A stretch of 5,521 nucleotides of DNA from the IMG/VR virus record IMGVR_UViG_2695420569_000017; one strand, given 5' to 3'. The DNA is from a virus (Duplodnaviria; Heunggongvirae; Uroviricota; Caudoviricetes). Position 1 is the first letter of the stretch, and every line of letters begins with the position of its first letter. This document shows positions 1-5,521 of the stretch, one piece after another. The position numbers and the translations under genes were made by a program. The notes under the pieces are model-generated. The model made no database searches. It saw only the letters and a program-made list of their open reading frames with translations, and was not told where the DNA came from.

Positions 1-1631
1 ATCCGGTCCGGCGCGGGGTGTGCGGTGATGTCCACACTCACCGGCTTACCGCTGCCGTTAATCAGGTTCACCGCCGATGTACCTGTCTCCGGCAGGGTAA
101 CCTCACGGTCCAGCGTCAGGGTGCGGGTGGCAGCATCAATGGACAGGACACGTCCGCCGGTCAGGGTCCCGGCATAGTCATTATCACAGATTTCAATAAT
201 GTCACCGGGTGTGTGCCGCAGCCCCTGAGACCCGAGCGTGAAATCCACCGTCTGCGTTTCCAGCAGTTCGGTCTTTATCACCCACAGTCCGGCACGGTGG
301 GCCTGACCGCGGCTGGTACAGCCGAACGCGTCCATCTTCAGCAGGTTGCGTCCGTAGCGCAGTATGGCTTCCGGGTCTTCCACCAGTTCCGTGGAGGTCT
401 GCCAGCCGTTCTGCGGGTCGGTGTAATTCACCTCCACCGCCGTGTGCCGGTCCTTCAGGGCACTGAAGCTGTAGCGGAACCCCACGCCGTTATCATCCAC
501 CACCACATCGCTGTTGGTGTACGGCCACACCACATCCGACAGGCGGTCCTGAACAAACGTCAGCATCTGGCCGTTCCATACCGGCATACAGCGCATCGCC
601 GAGCAGAAATCACTGAGAACATCCCACGCCTTACGCTGTTGTGCCAGGTACGCATTGAAGGTCATCCGCGGCTCGGTGCCCCCGAAGCCATCCGGCACCA
701 TCTGGTCGCAGTACTGCCCGATGGCATACAGCGCCCACTTGTCCACATCCGCCGCCCCCAGACGTTTTCCCATGCCGTAGCGCGGGTGAGTCAGCATGTC
801 CCACAGACACCAGGCCGGATTGTTGCTGTATGCCGGTTTCAGGCTGCCGTCCCAGATACCACTGTACGTGCGTTTTTCCGGGTCATAGTTTGACGGCACC
901 TGGATGATGCGACCGCGGATATGGTAGTTCACCGTCATCTGCTGACCACCAAACTGCTCCGCATCCACCTGCAGCCCCACAATCGCCGTGTTCGGGTAGC
1001 ACTGTTTCACATCGATGATTTCGGTGTATGACGACCAGAGCGTCTTATTCTGCAGCTGGTCTGTGGTGCTGTCCGCCGTCTCCCTGACCATCCGGATGTT
1101 AAAGGGCCGGGGCGGCAGATTCTCCAGAATCACCGACGCCAGGAACTGCGAGGTGGTCTTGCCGTTAATGGTGACATCCTTTTCCGTCATCCATTTACCA
1201 CCACGCTCAAGCTGAATCAGCAGGCGGACAGACGTCGGGTTACGGTCACCCTTTGAGGTGGTCTCCACCAGTGACTGCACCCCGAAGGTAACCCGCAGGC
1301 GGTCAATGTTCGCGGACGTAATGGTGCGCGTCACCGGCTTTGCCTTCGTCACTTCCACGCCCAGTCCGGTTTCAGCTCCGGAGGACTCAAAGCCTTCCGG
1401 TGGTGTCTGCTCCTGCTCCCCGGCACGCCAGACCGCAGTCATACCGTGTATCACGGGATTACCGTCCGTGCCCGTCAGCGGGGTTTTGTTCACCAGAATA
1501 CTCTGCAGGCCTTTCACCGGGCCTTCTATCGGTCCCTCACCAATCGCATCAATCACGCTCATCATCTGCGTGGATTTGAGATTATCCTTCGCCTCACGAG
1601 GCGTGTGTGCCTTACCGCCACCTTTTCCCAT
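1..1631 (-). CDS. J: Tail tip / host-specificity protein J (central tail fibre), N-terminal ~543 codons; 3' end lies beyond the window start
   Basis: Reverse-complement translation from ATG at 1631..1629 gives MGKGGGKAHTPREAKDNLKSTQMMSVIDAIGEGPIEGPVKGLQSILVNKTPLTGTDG..., which matches the N-terminus of lambda gpJ as I recall it. I hand-checked codons around 1551-1568 (QMMSVI). The frame stays open to position 1, which is why the ORF track (stop-terminated ORFs only) does not list it. Gene order after I is as in lambda. Confidence 0.9.
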   Translation of the reverse strand, partial: MGKGGGKAHTPREAKDNLKSTQMMSVIDAIGEGPIEGPVKGLQSILVNKTPLTGTDGNPVIHGMTAVWRAGEQEQTPPEGFESSGAETGLGVEVTKAKPVTRTITSANIDRLRVTFGVQSLVETTSKGDRNPTSVRLLIQLERGGKWMTEKDVTINGKTTSQFLASVILENLPPRPFNIRMVRETADSTTDQLQNKTLWSSYTEIIDVKQCYPNTAIVGLQVDAEQFGGQQMTVNYHIRGRIIQVPSNYDPEKRTYSGIWDGSLKPAYSNNPAWCLWDMLTHPRYGMGKRLGAADVDKWALYAIGQYCDQMVPDGFGGTEPRMTFNAYLAQQRKAWDVLSDFCSAMRCMPVWNGQMLTFVQDRLSDVVWPYTNSDVVVDDNGVGFRYSFSALKDRHTAVEVNYTDPQNGWQTSTELVEDPEAILRYGRNLLKMDAFGCTSRGQAHRAGLWVIKTELLETQTVDFTLGSQGLRHTPGDIIEICDNDYAGTLTGGRVLSIDAATRTLTLDREVTLPETGTSAVNLINGSGKPVSVDITAHPAPDR

Positions 1632-1737
1632 ACAGCCTTCCCCTGAATAAATTAACCGCCACTTGCCATTCCGTACAGAAGTCGGATATCCTTCGCCCGA
1701 AAAGCATGAAACACATTTCTGCCATGCTAAAGAGAAC

Positions 1738-1770
1738 CCCCGGTATCAGCAGATACCGGGGTTTTCTTTC
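1738..1770 (+). terminator. Rho-independent terminator: 10-bp GC-rich perfect stem, 4-nt loop, T-rich tail
   Basis: CCCCGGTATC (1738-1747), loop AGCA (1748-1751), GATACCGGGG (1752-1761), then TTTTCTTTC (1762-1770) on the plus strand. The minus strand has an A-rich leader and only a weak T-rich trailer, so the main activity is expected on the plus strand. Confidence 0.7.
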
Positions 1771-1836
1771 ATGCCCACCGATAATCCTGTTGGTTAAAAC
1801 CGGTAATGGCATAAAAATTCTGAATATCTTCACATT

Positions 1837-1864
1837 TTCACACACTGACTGTGGCGCTTATAAT
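1837..1864 (+). promoter_or_regulatory. Sigma70-like promoter: -35 TTCACA, 16-nt spacer, consensus -10 TATAAT
   Basis: TTCACA at 1837-1842 and perfect TATAAT at 1859-1864, with an A/T-rich upstream stretch (1811-1836, ATAAAAATTCTGAATATCTT). Predicted transcription start is near 1871. The orientation is opposite to the tail operon. Confidence 0.5.
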
Positions 1865-1870
1865 TTCGCT

Positions 1871-1968
1871 GCGTTAGTGTTTTTTTGCCCGAGTAACAAA
1901 AACAACTCCTTAACATTGATCTTCATTTGTCTGTCCCCGCAGCTCCGCGATCACTGCGGGATTTTTTT
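1871..1968 (+). ncRNA. Putative prophage-encoded small RNA (~100 nt) running from the predicted promoter to an intrinsic terminator; identity unknown
   Basis: The promoter at 1837-1864 is followed about 70 nt later by a terminator hairpin and T7 tail (1935-1968). The interval has no start codon with a ribosome-binding site and no ORF. It contains an internal T7 run (1880-1886) and a CA-rich stretch AACAAAAACAAC (1895-1906), an architecture typical of Hfq-dependent sRNAs. Boundaries are predicted, not measured. Confidence 0.45.
1935..1968 (+). terminator. Rho-independent terminator: GC-rich stem followed by a T7 tract
   Basis: CCCGCAG (1936-1942) pairs with CTGCGGG (1954-1960) around an 11-nt loop, followed by A then TTTTTTT (1962-1968) on the plus strand. 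The minus strand has no T-tract after the stem, so read-through from I to J on the minus strand is not blocked. Confidence 0.65.
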
Positions 1969-1973
1969 ATGTT

Positions 1974-2654
1974 TTATCCCTGTCGCCCGACAACCACGAC
2001 CGTTCCGCCCCCGCCTTCATCACGGGTGCTGATGTCCTGGGATATACGGCGGGAGCCAACCAGCATTTCCCCGTAAGGCACCGGCATCGGGTTCCCCTGG
2101 GCAATCATGTTATCCAGCGAGGAAAAGTACGTGTTCTGTCTGCCGTTATCCGTTGCGCGGTAATCCGGTGTTTTTGCCTTCGGGGCCAGCATCTGGGCCA
2201 CTCCGCCCAGAATCATGCTGGCTCCAAGTGAAAACAGCATCGTGGTGGCAGAAAAACCACCGGCTGCCAGGGCTGAACCCCATAACGCCATTGATGCCCC
2301 GGCAGTGAAGAAAGAGCCCACGATGGCTGCCGCCCCCAGCACAATCTGCAGTCCACCCTTTCCGGCCCCGGCCAGTCGCGGCACAATGTGGATGACCGTT
2401 CCCTCACCCAGCTGTTCGTGAAGACGGGCGTACACCGCCTCCGGTGCCGTGTCATCACCGGCAATACGTATCTGGTACCAGCCTTCGTTCATCTGACGGC
2501 GGAATCCGGGCACCTGTAACGACAGCGCCCGGATGGCTTCCGCTGCCGTGTTCACATACAGGCTGAGGCGGCTGCCAAATCGTTGTAAATCCCCGTGAAG
2601 GCAGATGCGGACCAGTGGCGGTGACGCCAGACAGAATGCGTTCGTCGTTGCCAT
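1974..2654 (-). CDS. I: Tail tip assembly protein I (226 aa)
   Basis: ORF-track protein MATTNAFCLASPPLVRICLHGDLQRFG...QNTYFSSLDNMIAQGN...GEMLVGSR closely resembles lambda gpI as I recall it (about 223 aa), including a glycine/alanine-rich hydrophobic core. ATG at 2654 is preceded by the SD-like GAGAGG. The start sits inside the 3' end of K, as in lambda. Confidence 0.9.
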   Translation of the reverse strand: MATTNAFCLASPPLVRICLHGDLQRFGSRLSLYVNTAAEAIRALSLQVPGFRRQMNEGWYQIRIAGDDTAPEAVYARLHEQLGEGTVIHIVPRLAGAGKGGLQIVLGAAAIVGSFFTAGASMALWGSALAAGGFSATTMLFSLGASMILGGVAQMLAPKAKTPDYRATDNGRQNTYFSSLDNMIAQGNPMPVPYGEMLVGSRRISQDISTRDEGGGGTVVVVGRQG

Positions 2655-3295
2655 TTTTCAGAATACCTCTCCCGTTTACTCAGTTGTTCAGGCAGATGGT
2701 GAAGCAGTTCACCGTTGCCACAGTAAATGGCGGCATGATTCGGCACCGATGCGCCAAAGCAGCACAGCAGGATATCGCCTGCCTGTGCAGAGGACGGAGA
2801 CACCCGGCAAAAGCCGTTTTCCGCCAGGTTGTCCAGGTACAGGTTCTGGCCGTTGCGCCACCAGTCATCCTCACGCACAAAATCCGGCAGCGTTATCCCC
2901 GCCAGATGGTAGGCATCCCGGAACAGGGTGTAACAGTCCGTCACCCCGTGCTCAAAGCGCCGTCCCGTCAGGTGCGGCACGCAGCGGAATTTGTGAATGT
3001 CACCCCGGCAGACCAGCCACCAGGGCAGTGCGCTTTTTATCTGCAGCCGCCGGTCAGCCTCGCTCAGCCAGGGCAGCCCACCGGGATGACTGTGGACCAG
3101 TGCCACAATCTCCCCCTGCATCTGTGCCTGCAGCCAGTCTTCCGGTGCGATACGAAAATACGCCTCCGGCTCTGCAGAAATATTCACACAAGGGATATAC
3201 CACTCCCCCTCCGGCGTGCTTATCACGAAGCCGCACGACTCCGCAGGCGCACACCGCCGGGCATGCGCCAGAATCGCTGATTCAGTCTGTGTCAT
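2552..3295 (-). CDS. K: Tail tip assembly protein K (MPN/JAMM-like plus NlpC/P60-like domains), 247 aa from the ATG at 3295
   Basis: The in-frame product MTQTESAILAHARRCAPAESCGFVISTPEGE...VALVHSHPGGLPWLSEADRR...GVTDCYTLFRDAYHLAG...NHAAIYCG matches lambda gpK. It contains a JAMM-type HxH...S..D motif and an NlpC/P60-type Cys (DCYTL) with downstream His residues. The 334-aa track ORF (2552..3556) is an N-terminal over-extension into L. The start at 3295 is the first ATG after the L stop but has a weak Shine-Dalgarno, so start-codon choice is uncertain. Confidence 0.8.
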   Translation of the reverse strand: MTQTESAILAHARRCAPAESCGFVISTPEGEWYIPCVNISAEPEAYFRIAPEDWLQAQMQGEIVALVHSHPGGLPWLSEADRRLQIKSALPWWLVCRGDIHKFRCVPHLTGRRFEHGVTDCYTLFRDAYHLAGITLPDFVREDDWWRNGQNLYLDNLAENGFCRVSPSSAQAGDILLCCFGASVPNHAAIYCGNGELLHHLPEQLSKRERYSEKWQRRTHSVWRHRHWSASAFTGIYNDLAAASACM

Positions 3296-3305
3296 AAACC
3301 GGGAT

Positions 3306-4004
3306 TTACTGCGAAAGTTTATTAATGGAAAGGAAACCGCCAAAATTAGCCACCATGCCGCGCATCTCACACCCGCGCATGCACTTGCTGCATCTGTCCT
3401 TACGGATATCCGTGGTGGGTTTATCGAACTCATCCGCCACAGCCCCGCCCGTGTAACCACACTCATCAGAGCGGTAGGTCCACATACAGGTGTTCGCCAG
3501 CATGATGCGACCGGGAAACAGCGCCCCGTCCGTCTCGGTCGGTGTGGCCAGCACAAACGAGGCTGTCATGGCCGTCAGCTCTGACATCTGCTCCACCACC
3601 CAGCGGTCGCTCAGCTCCTGCTCCGGGTCCGCTTCCGGATTGCCCGCCACAAAATTCACCGCATCCAGAAAACGGGCATACACCCGGCGGCGGACCACCG
3701 TGGCCCCCACCAGGCTCTGCAGGTCCTCCGCCATCCCGGTGACCAGACCAAACAGATTGGACACCGTCAGCGACGGTCTGGCACTGCTGCCCTTCCCGTT
3801 CATCTCAAAGCCACTGCCGTCAATCGGGTATGCCTGGTACTTCCGCCCCTGCCAGGTCACCGGCTCCCCTTTTTCATTCAGCTCATTGCAGAAAAAATAC
3901 CGCTCACCGCCCTGTACCGTCAGGTCGATTTCCCAGAGTACCACCCGCGGTGACTGCTCTGATTTAACCGACTCGCTCAGACTTTCTTCGTGAATATCCT
4001 GCAT
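3306..4004 (-). CDS. L: Minor tail / tail tip assembly protein L (232 aa)
   Basis: ORF-track protein MQDIHEESLSESVKSEQSPRVVLWEIDLTVQGGERYFFCNE... has the same length as lambda gpL (232 aa) and a cysteine-rich C-terminus (CMWTYRSDEC...CSKCMRGC). Its ATG overlaps the M stop (ATGA at 4004). Confidence 0.92.
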   Translation of the reverse strand: MQDIHEESLSESVKSEQSPRVVLWEIDLTVQGGERYFFCNELNEKGEPVTWQGRKYQAYPIDGSGFEMNGKGSSARPSLTVSNLFGLVTGMAEDLQSLVGATVVRRRVYARFLDAVNFVAGNPEADPEQELSDRWVVEQMSELTAMTASFVLATPTETDGALFPGRIMLANTCMWTYRSDECGYTGGAVADEFDKPTTDIRKDRCSKCMRGCEMRGMVANFGGFLSINKLSQ

Positions 4005-4333
4005 CAGTTCACCACCTGCTTAAACTCCGCGCTGAACTCAACGCGCAACATCCCGACCCGCGCAGACCACCCGGCACAGGTCACCTTTATCTGCCGGTAT
4101 GCATAGGGTGGCTTCCACAAAAATGCCTTCCAGCCACCGTGCTCTGCCAGGAACGCTTCCAGATGCCGGGCCTCCTCCCGGGTCACGGAAAGCGTCACCC
4201 TGTATGTTTTCAGGTCAGCATTCAGCCCTGCCGCCATACGCTGTGAGTACCCGTCACCAAAACGCACTTCACGCACCGACGGCTGCGAGTTCACCTCCAT
4301 ATCCGGCTTCACTTTCCAGCGAAAGGTTTTCAT
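4004..4333 (-). CDS. M: Minor tail protein M (109 aa)
   Basis: ORF-track protein MKTFRWKVKPDMEVNSQPSVREVRFGDGYSQRMAAGLNADLKTYRVTL... has the same length as lambda gpM (109 aa) and sits between H and L. Its ATG at 4333 overlaps the H stop (ATGA). Confidence 0.9.
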   Translation of the reverse strand: MKTFRWKVKPDMEVNSQPSVREVRFGDGYSQRMAAGLNADLKTYRVTLSVTREEARHLEAFLAEHGGWKAFLWKPPYAYRQIKVTCAGWSARVGMLRVEFSAEFKQVVN

Positions 4334-5521
4334 CCACCGCTCCCTGATAACATACCGCCATCACGCAACTGCAGCCGGAGTTCATCCTGTGCCCCCTTGC
4401 GGGCCATCTCATACACCGCTTTCATCAGCTGCGGCCCTGCCCGCCCGTTGGGGCCGTCGTTCTGAATCACCACGTGATTGTTCTGATTAAAATTAATGCC
4501 TTCCGCCCGCCGCATCTGCGCCGGACTTCCGGCACCGCCGACATAACCACCTTCCGCATAGCCCCGCATCAGGCGGTACAGATTGCCGACACCAATCCGG
4601 CTGGTCGCCTCCTTCGTGAAGACAAACTCCCCGCGATGAACAATCCCCGCAGGTTCATATTTACCCCCCCGTCCCCGTAAATCCCCCGGTCGCGAAATGG
4701 AAGTTCGCCGCCGCAGCCTGAATGGCCGTCCCCGTGGAGGCAGACGCACCACCACCGAAAGTACCGCCAATGGCGCTGCCGATACTCCCGACTATCCCCA
4801 CCATCGCCTGCTTCAGAAAAATCTCTGTCAGCATGGACAGCACAGAACGGGTGAAACCACGCCAGTTCTGTTCGCTGCCGGTCAGCATCGCTGCCATATT
4901 CTGTGCAATACCGTCAAAGGTCTGCGTGGCCGCGTTTTTAACCTGCGAAAAACTGTCCGTCGCACTTTCCGCCCACTCGCCCCAGCCGGACTTCATCCCG
5001 GCCATCCAGCTTCCACGAAGCTGCTCCTCCGCAGACCAGGTGTTCTTCAGTGCAGATGTGGCCTTCGCCAGCGCAGCCGGATTATCACCGTACACCTCAC
5101 GAAGGCGCTGCTCTTCCGACTCCCGCTGCGCCTGACGGTCGGTGAGTCCGCGGGCTTTTGCGCTGATTGCCGCCTGCTTCGCGCTCTGCTGCTGTTCAAA
5201 CCGCGCCGCCTGCTGTGCCAGCTCATTCAGCCGCTTCTGGTGTTCAATCTTGTCTCCCAGCTCAGCCAGCTGGCGTTTGTACTCCAGCGTCTCTTTCTCA
5301 TGAGCCAGCAGGGATTTTTCCTGCTCAGATAACTGCCGTTTCGTGGCGGCCTCTTTCAGGACCACATACTGATTTTCCGCTTCCCATAAATCCCGGCGCT
5401 GCTGGCTGATTTTCTCATTCACACCGCTGTGTTTTTCCAGCGTCCTGAGCTCGGTTTCAAGCGCCAGCATGGCTGCATGCGCCCGGTCTTCCTGGCGCTC
5501 ACCGGCAGACACCTTCACACC
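4330..5521 (-). CDS. H: Tail tape measure protein H, C-terminal portion (5' end beyond window); reading frame interrupted by an apparent +1 frameshift in a G7 run at 4664-4670
   Basis: Two adjacent minus-strand ORFs in different frames (4661..5518 and 4330..4770) together reproduce the lambda gpH C-terminal region: ...ATGGFTGTGG ends at a stop in one frame and GGKYEPAGIVHRGEFVFTKEATSRIGVGNLYRLMRGYA... continues in the other. Removing one G from the G7 run (C7 on the plus strand) restores ...FTGTGGKYEPAGIV.... The upstream part is Q/E/K-rich and coiled-coil-like, typical of tape measure proteins. Confidence 0.8.

What the first reader, a model, noticed from the sequence alone, without database searches (positions are those of the whole stretch)
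4661..4672. Tape-measure gene H split by a +1 frameshift at a C7/G7 homopolymer
The two H-derived ORFs abut exactly at a seven-base homopolymer; a six-base run would give a continuous ...GFTGTGGKYEPAGIVHR... as in lambda gpH. Three explanations are possible: a homopolymer-length sequencing or assembly error; a real inactivating mutation, which would mark the prophage as tail-defective or cryptic even though M, L, K, I and J look intact; or, least likely, a slippage-prone tract that toggles H expression. As read, H would lose its last ~145 residues.
Basis: seen in the sequence. Interest (0 to 1): 0.5.

Follow-up and report, generated by a model that had tools for sequence, protein, structure and literature searches.

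The report
Inherited frameshift in prophage tape-measure gene
A lambda-like prophage in one E. coli clone carries a real, inherited one-base insertion that cuts its tail tape-measure gene short; this is ordinary prophage decay, not a sequencing error and not a new mechanism.

Summary
On the coding (-) strand a G7 run (window 4664-4670) puts gene H into a TAA stop at 4663-4661. Removing one G restores ...GFTGTGGKYEPAGIVHR..., which is collinear with lambda gpH and with intact E. coli homologues.

The window is the whole contig CYAW01000103.1 (E. coli, GCA_001286145.1). G6 is the normal state:
- Among complete E. coli genomes, 311 records have G6, 4 have G5 and 0 have G7.
- Among the 101 tract-bearing loci fetched by then, 99 have G6, 2 have G5 and 0 have G7.

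G7 is nevertheless not a random read error. Seven assemblies (four WGS accession series, each counted here as a separate submission) carry G7 on a 100 % identical H-M haplotype. They differ by private SNPs, and they have two different I-J/J modules downstream. This is therefore a single slippage mutation inherited within a clone.

H has no other lesion, and M, L, K, I and the J part present are intact. These correspond to lambda gpH 744-853 and include the segment 818-849 that binds gpI in the tail tip. The prophage is predicted to be tail-defective unless complemented or reverted. I found no support for programmed recoding or phase variation. Interest is low.

The parts
4664..4670 (-). G7 homopolymer (C7 on + strand), the site of the one-base insertion relative to the usual G6
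   Evidence: G6 in 311 complete-genome records, G5 in 4, G7 in 0. G7 in 7 draft assemblies sharing one haplotype.
4661..4663 (-). Premature TAA stop created in the H frame by the extra G
4664..5521 (-). Gene H (tail tape measure), upstream frame. It is cut by the contig end at 5521. It contains the Tape_meas_lam_C domain and the glycine-rich region and ends ...GFTGTGG.
   Evidence: Pfam PF09718 E=2e-22 at residues 170-244 of this piece. Alignment to lambda gpH and CEA601S H.
4330..4662 (-). Gene H C-terminal 110 codons plus TGA, now out of frame. It corresponds to lambda gpH 744-853 (most of gpHC, including the gpI-binding residues 818-849).
   Evidence: gpHC and gpI contact from PMC12617516.
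4004..4333 (-). Gene M (109 aa), intact. Its ATG overlaps the H stop (ATGA).
   Evidence: PF05939 on the same gene in L118.
3306..4004 (-). Gene L (232 aa), intact. It is a rare allele seen on 13 contigs.
2552..3295 (-). Gene K (247 aa; JAB + NlpC/P60), intact
1974..2654 (-). Gene I (226 aa from the lambda-like start; also annotated as 193 aa from 2555), intact. It overlaps the K 3' end as in lambda.
1..1631 (-). Gene J, N-terminal 543 codons, open to the contig end

Best explanation
This is a genuine one-base insertion (G6 -> G7), of the kind made by replication slippage. It lies in the tape-measure gene H of a lambda-like prophage and is inherited vertically in one E. coli clone. It moves the ribosome into a TAA stop immediately after ...GFTGTGG. 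The product therefore ends at the equivalent of lambda gpH residue 743 and lacks the last 110 residues. In lambda, that tail end of gpH (gpHC, residues 818-849) is held by gpI inside the tail tip. The inference is that the truncated ruler cannot be anchored to the tip initiator, so the prophage cannot build its own tails unless one of three things happens: a co-resident lambdoid prophage supplies H, recombination replaces the gene, or a G is lost again.

Shown: the lesion, its uniqueness in the window, its single-haplotype inheritance, and the intactness of the rest of H and of M-L-K-I-J(5').

Inferred: the slippage origin, the loss of function and the tail defect.
For: The tract and stop are in the sequence. 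G6 restores a protein collinear with lambda gpH and with intact E. coli H.

The window equals contig CYAW01000103.1 of GCA_001286145.1, whose proteins are named as E. coli.

G7 is also present in these contigs, all 100 % identical to the window over 4004-5000 wherever they overlap it:
- CYAX01000120
- CYDM01000113
- CYBE01000102
- DBBVCM010000083
- JAUKZW010000127
- PQSD01000190

The carriers have private SNPs (window 5373, 5147, 5141, 3624, 3411, 2202). They also have two different I-3'/spacer/J modules beyond ~2094, so they are distinct isolates.

The nearest G6 haplotypes differ by 2 SNPs. Every other tract-bearing sequence examined is G6 or G5, apart from one Logan contig described under rivals.

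In the sister contig that holds all of H (L124), removing one G gives an uninterrupted 857-aa ORF that is 98.3 % identical to an intact H found on 62 contigs.

No other uncompensated indel was found in the window.

The role of the gpH C-terminus comes from PMC12617516.
Against: No raw reads could be inspected, and the sequencing platform of the carrier assemblies is unknown. Four of the seven carriers share one WGS accession series (CY..), presumably one project. No expression or tail-assembly data exist. Low-level read-through of the tract by frameshifting cannot be excluded computationally. The functional consequence rests on analogy with lambda gpH, where the necessity of the last 110 residues is inferred from structure and from my own knowledge of classical genetics, and was not tested here.
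Confidence: 0.85

Rival explanations
1. A homopolymer-length sequencing or assembly error: the real genome has G6 and H is intact.
For: Homopolymer miscalls at exactly this tract are common in public data. G5 occurs in error-laden long-read assemblies whose neighbouring genes are also fragmented (L104, L105, L108, L110, L113). G5 is in the record of the isolated phage PhiR5_1, whose sister record PhiR12_2_star has another 1-nt deletion nearby. One Logan contig has G7 together with a second 1-nt deletion 209 nt upstream. No complete genome has G7.
Against: The identical G7 recurs in seven assemblies under four WGS accession series, taken here as four independent submissions. It is strictly linked to one 997-nt haplotype. 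About 100 other short-read-type contigs carrying the same 39-nt context all read G6, with one G5. The window shows no other uncompensated indel. A context-driven systematic error would hit G6 carriers of all haplotypes.
Confidence: 0.06
2. A leaky or recoded site. Ribosomes shift +1 at GGG-GGG-UAA (P-site tRNA-Gly re-pairing on GGU while the A site holds a stop), or RNA polymerase slips on the G run. Either would give a small fraction of full-length H, which might suffice because only about six copies are needed per tail.
For: The sequence has the general form of a +1 shift-prone site: a re-pairable P-site codon followed by a stop (own knowledge of the prfB-type mechanism). There is a precedent for low-level compensatory frameshifting on a G-run indel in herpes simplex thymidine kinase (PMC5009743). 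gpH copy number is six per tail (PMC12617516).
Against: The arrangement is not conserved: all relatives outside one clone encode H in one frame with G6 or with an interrupted run (lambda has ACC GGC GGC). No RNA structure beyond chance lies around or downstream of the tract (z = 0.09) and there is no Rfam match. The upstream GGGG lies 6 nt from the P-site codon, not the 3 nt that stimulates prfB (sequence plus own knowledge). Efficiency cannot be computed.
Confidence: 0.05
3. A phase-variable (contingency) tract that reversibly switches H, and so tail production, on and off within populations.
For: Three lengths of the tract (G5, G6, G7) exist in public sequences.
Against: All 8 contigs (7 assemblies) of the G7 haplotype are G7. 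No G6 sequence with the identical haplotype was found, even though the carriers have diverged by SNPs and by a downstream module swap. Non-G6 lengths are about 1 % in complete genomes and are mostly attributable to read error. Runs of 6-7 G are shorter than typical contingency tracts (own knowledge).
Confidence: 0.03

Closest known systems
Phage lambda tape measure protein gpH and its processing into gpH* and gpHC
   Same: The gene order T-H-M-L-K-I-J is the same. The repaired homologue of the same haplotype (L124) is ~78 % identical to lambda gpH over its full length. Both have the Tape_meas_lam_C domain and the glycine-rich region. The break lies within the gpHC region, about 50 residues downstream of the estimated start of gpHC (~residue 690) (PMC12617516).
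   Different: In lambda the split is a post-assembly proteolytic cleavage of a full-length protein that is already anchored in the tip. Here the C-terminal 110 residues are simply not translated in frame, and no credible start codon would make them separately. Lambda has no homopolymer at this position (ACC GGC GGC).
Annotated 'frameshifted' tape-measure pseudogenes at the same tract in other E. coli prophages (e.g. O145 RM9873-C1, G5)
   Same: It is the same gene and the same homopolymer with a one-base length change. PGAP flags it as a frameshifted pseudogene, and the rest of the tail module is intact.
   Different: Those are -1 (G5) singletons in long-read assemblies and may be technical. 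The window's allele is +1 (G7) and is shared by a clone.
Defective lambdoid prophage pool of E. coli O157 Sakai (Asadulghani et al. 2009, PMC2669165)
   Same: These are lambdoid prophages with single morphogenesis defects that sit beside related prophages. They can be complemented in trans or repaired by recombination. The short contig ending in shared prophage sequence, and the two different J modules behind the same H allele, fit such a pool.
   Different: Neither complementation nor co-resident prophages were tested for this strain.
Herpes simplex virus thymidine kinase G-run 'savior' indels with compensatory frameshifting (reviewed in PMC5009743)
   Same: Both involve a one-base change in a run of about 7 G in a viral gene, where a trace of frameshifting can restore some product.
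   Different: That is a eukaryotic system under drug selection with measured frameshifting. Nothing comparable has been measured here.

Membership tests
Lambda-type tail tape measure protein (gpH family) | Pfam TMP_2 (N-terminal) and Tape_meas_lam_C domains | tested here: met
   PF09718 E=2e-22 in the window's H fragment. PF06791 plus PF09718 in the full-length relative. The window lacks the N-terminal part because the contig ends.
Lambda-type tail tape measure protein (gpH family) | Position between the G/T chaperone genes and M-L-K-I-J | tested here: met
   M, L, K, I and J follow in the window. G and T precede H in sister contig L124 and in relatives.
Lambda-type tail tape measure protein (gpH family) | Single uninterrupted reading frame through the C-terminal tip-binding segment | tested here: not met
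   TAA at 4663-4661 follows the G7 run. The C-terminal 110 codons are in the +1 frame. This is a pseudogene of the family.
Sequencing/assembly artefact | Not reproducible in independent assemblies and unlinked to haplotype | tested here: not met
   G7 occurs in 7 assemblies under four WGS accession series, all on one identical haplotype.
Sequencing/assembly artefact | Raw reads disagree with the assembly | not testable with these tools
   No read access.
Programmed ribosomal frameshift site | The two-frame arrangement is conserved among relatives | tested here: not met
   Relatives encode H in one frame. G6 is in 311 complete-genome records and 99 of 101 fetched loci, and lambda has no run.
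Programmed ribosomal frameshift site | Stimulatory element (structured RNA or a correctly spaced SD-like sequence) | tested here: not met
   Fold z-score is 0.09 and there is no Rfam hit. The GGGG lies 6 nt upstream of the P-site codon.
Programmed ribosomal frameshift site | Measured frameshift product | not testable with these tools
   Needs a reporter assay or mass spectrometry.
Phase-variable homopolymer (contingency locus) | Tract length varies among very close relatives | tested here: not met
   8 of 8 contigs of the haplotype are G7, and no identical-haplotype G6 was found.
Phase-variable homopolymer (contingency locus) | Within-culture length heterogeneity | not testable with these tools
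   Needs deep sequencing of reads.

The most novel reading that the evidence does not exclude
The G7 allele is not dead but leaky. A few per cent of ribosomes shift +1 at GGG-GGG-UAA, or RNA polymerase drops a G, and this makes enough full-length tape measure (about six copies per tail) for a low yield of infectious particles. The clone would then keep a throttled but recoverable prophage, as a bacterial counterpart of the herpesvirus TK 'savior indel'.
Probability: 0.05. Interest if true: 0.5.

Novelty: already known. Interest (0 to 1): 0.12.

Why it matters
The practical value is in annotation and in prophage-viability calls. In this clone, H should be annotated as one frameshifted pseudogene rather than as two 'minor tail protein H' genes. 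The prophage should be scored as tail-defective on its own, even though its tail module otherwise looks perfect.

The case also gives a useful rule. The ACG-GGG-GGT tract in this H allele group is a recurrent site of length miscalls (G5) in long-read assemblies. A split H at this position should therefore be trusted only when, as here, it is reproduced across independent assemblies on one haplotype. Beyond that it is ordinary prophage decay.

Tried and rejected
- **Other homopolymer errors in the window.** I looked for these as a sign of an error-prone platform. There are none: all other alignment gaps against four relatives are compensated pairs in divergent stretches.
- **G7 in curated collections.** I found none in complete E. 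coli genomes, phage records, IMG/VR, JGI/ENA metagenome contigs or GTDB species representatives. The allele appeared only through exact-protein look-ups of the window's K and L alleles and of the frameshift-specific 146-aa ORF.
- **Independent translation of the C-terminal piece.** The in-frame starts are TTG 4770, GTG 4755/4752/4749 and ATG 4569. None has a convincing, properly spaced Shine-Dalgarno sequence. The upstream ones add 29-36 junk residues. Rejected.
- **The Logan contig's -1/+1 pair as a functional compensation.** Stops lie in the shifted interval. Rejected.
- **RNA elements.** Rfam gave nothing and folding around the tract is no better than shuffles.
- **Publication on phages PhiR5_1/PhiR12.** I searched to learn whether a G5 phage is viable. 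No publication is in the library.
- **A second lesion in CYBE01000102.** This turned out to be a ~448-nt duplicated join to a 95.8 %-identical H 5' part. It is most likely a chimeric assembly and I did not pursue it.

Full report
**What is in the sequence**

The tail genes lie on the - strand. The + strand has C7 at 4664-4670, which is G7 on the coding strand. It is the only G/C homopolymer of six or more bases in the 5521-base window.

The H reading frame enters from the contig end at 5521. It reads ...ATGGFTGTGG and stops at TAA (4663-4661). The rest of H (KYEPAGIVHRGEF...SGSGG, 110 codons) follows from 4662 to the TGA at 4332-4330, one base out of register. With six G the two parts join as ...GFTGTGGKYEPAGIVHR. 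This is collinear, residue for residue, with lambda gpH 737-753 and with the intact 868-aa H of E. coli CEA601S.

The upstream piece carries Pfam Tape_meas_lam_C (E = 2e-22). The truncation removes 110 residues (lambda gpH 744-853), not ~145.

**Surroundings**

- M (4333-4004), L (4004-3306), K (3295-2552) and I (2654-1974) are open and of normal length.
- The first 543 codons of J (1631-1) are also open.
- Against four close relatives, every other alignment gap in the window is a compensated pair inside a divergent patch. The extra G is the only net indel in coding sequence.

**Where the window comes from**

Exact-protein look-ups of the window's K and L alleles returned a 5521-base contig, CYAW01000103.1 of assembly GCA_001286145.1. 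It is identical to the reverse complement of the window. Its H fragment is deposited as 'Minor tail protein precursor H [Escherichia coli]'.

**How unusual G7 is**

| Collection | G6 | G5 | G7 |
|---|---|---|---|
| 5,426 complete E. coli genomes (exact 84/83/85-mer records) | 311 | 4 | 0 |
| All 101 tract-bearing loci fetched by then: 98 from a length-tolerant pattern scan of IMG/VR, public metagenome contigs and one genome per species, plus 3 fetched earlier | 99 | 2 | 0 |
| Phage records with this local context | 3 | 1 | 0 |

The two G5 loci in the second row are one IMG/VR contig and phage PhiR5_1. Lambda itself has ACC GGC GGC here, with no run at all. G6 is therefore the functional state of one allele group of H.

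**Error or mutation?**

The census alone would have suggested an error. Technical miscalls at this tract clearly exist:
- G5 turns up in megabase-contig assemblies whose neighbouring tail genes are also shredded by frameshifts (L104, L105, L108, L110, L113).
- G5 is in the record of phage PhiR5_1. Its sister record PhiR12_2_star has another single-base deletion about 120 nt downstream.

The protein look-ups, however, showed that the window is not alone. G7 is present in CYAX01000120, CYDM01000113, CYBE01000102, DBBVCM010000083, JAUKZW010000127 and PQSD01000190. With the window that makes seven assemblies under four WGS accession series (CY.., DBBV.., JAUK.., PQSD), taken here as four independent submissions.

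Over window 4004-5000, all of them are 100 % identical to the window wherever they overlap it. The nearest G6 sequences differ by two substitutions.

The carriers are not copies of one data set. They have private SNPs (window 5373, 5147, 5141, 3624, 3411, 2202). Four contigs (three of them G7 carriers) diverge from the window from about 2094 leftwards, into a different I-3'/spacer/J module.

About a hundred other contigs with the same local sequence read G6. A context-dependent systematic error would not respect haplotype in this way. I conclude that G7 arose once and is inherited in a clone.

The frameshift-specific 146-aa ORF also exists on one Logan contig (ERR10497850). That contig is on a different haplotype and has a second one-base deletion 209 nt upstream. 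Stops lie in the shifted interval, so this is either noisy data or a second, further-decayed occurrence.

**State of the gene**

Sister contig DBBVCM010000083 holds FI, FII, Z, U, V, G, T, H, M, L, K and I. In it, H has only this lesion. Removing one G gives an uninterrupted 857-aa ORF that is 98.3 % identical to an intact H found on 62 contigs. The inactivation is therefore recent relative to H divergence. It has still persisted through SNP accumulation and a downstream module exchange.

**Predicted consequence**

In lambda, gpH (853 aa) is cleaved after tail assembly, in its glycine-rich region, into gpH* and a ~14 kDa gpHC (from ~residue 690). Residues 818-849 of gpHC are seen bound to gpI inside the tail tip (PMC12617516).

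The stop here falls at the equivalent of residue 743. The product keeps the ruler part but lacks the tip-bound segment. The inference is that H cannot be anchored to the initiator, so the prophage cannot assemble tails by itself.

No plausible separate start codon would supply the C-terminal piece. Complementation by co-resident lambdoid prophages is well documented in E. coli O157 (PMC2669165). It is plausible here, since the contigs break in shared prophage sequence and two J modules sit behind the same H allele. It is untested.

**Rivals**

- **Programmed or leaky frameshifting.** GGG-GGG-UAA has the general shape of a +1 shift site, and HSV thymidine-kinase G-run indels are a precedent for compensatory slippage (PMC5009743). 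However, the two-frame arrangement is confined to one clone, no RNA structure exceeds shuffled controls (z = 0.09) and nothing matches Rfam. I give it about 5 %.
- **Phase variation.** All eight contigs (seven assemblies) of the haplotype are G7 and no identical-haplotype G6 was found. I give it about 3 %.
- **Read error.** I give it about 6 %, pending the reads.

**Verdict**

This is a real, clonally inherited homopolymer frameshift that turns the tape-measure gene of an otherwise intact-looking lambdoid tail module into a pseudogene. It is an ordinary kind of event and of low interest. The useful outcomes are the corrected annotation and the caution that this tract is also a frequent site of long-read miscalls.

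Noticed in passing
window 1632-1973 (I-J spacer): This 343-nt non-coding spacer has no counterpart in lambda, where I and J are ~60 nt apart. It has three features: a perfect 10-bp GC-rich hairpin at 1738-1761; a near-consensus + strand sigma-70 promoter at 1837-1864 (TTCACA-16-TATAAT, 11 of 12); and a + strand terminator-like hairpin at 1944-1960 followed by T7. All of these are antisense to the tail operon. In E. coli O145 RM9873-C1 the same position holds sodC on the opposite strand. The spacer may therefore be a moron slot, a remnant of one, or a small antisense transcript.
   Followed up: partly
window ~1811-2094 versus L116, L119, L121, L122: Four sister contigs are identical to the window from H through most of I: L116, L119 and L121, which carry the same G7 H allele, and L122, which starts downstream of the tract. 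All four switch to a different sequence from ~2094 leftwards (I 3' end, spacer, J). This indicates a recombinational swap of the host-range module behind the same frameshifted H.
   Followed up: partly
L126 (CYBE01000102.1) 1046-4069: The H region is ~449 nt longer than normal. A ~448-nt stretch is present twice and joins a 95.8 %-identical H 5' part to the G7 haplotype. This is a chimeric assembly of two prophage H genes or a real internal duplication.
   Followed up: no
L103 (Logan ERR10497850_1572) 1-330: This contig has a second, independent G7 at the same tract on a different haplotype (10 mismatches in 966). It also has a 1-nt deletion at the position of window 4879 (ACCGGC -> ACCGC). 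Stops lie in the interval, so the pair does not restore H. The platform is unknown.
   Followed up: partly
L002 (PV340545.1, phage PhiR5_1) ~3838-3951; L003 (PV340551.1, PhiR12_2_star) ~4005-4053: Two deposited genomes of isolated E. coli C phages have H annotated as two CDS. PhiR5_1 has G5 at the same tract. PhiR12_2_star has a 1-nt deletion in a GG(T)GG stretch ~120 nt downstream. These are either homopolymer read errors in the records or viable phages with a split H. No publication was found in the library.
   Followed up: partly
window 2552-2654: I, read from its lambda-like start (226 aa), overlaps the 3' end of K by 103 nt, exactly as in lambda (K 14276-14875, I 14773-15444). Many automated annotations instead start I 33 codons later, giving 193 aa.
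   Followed up: no
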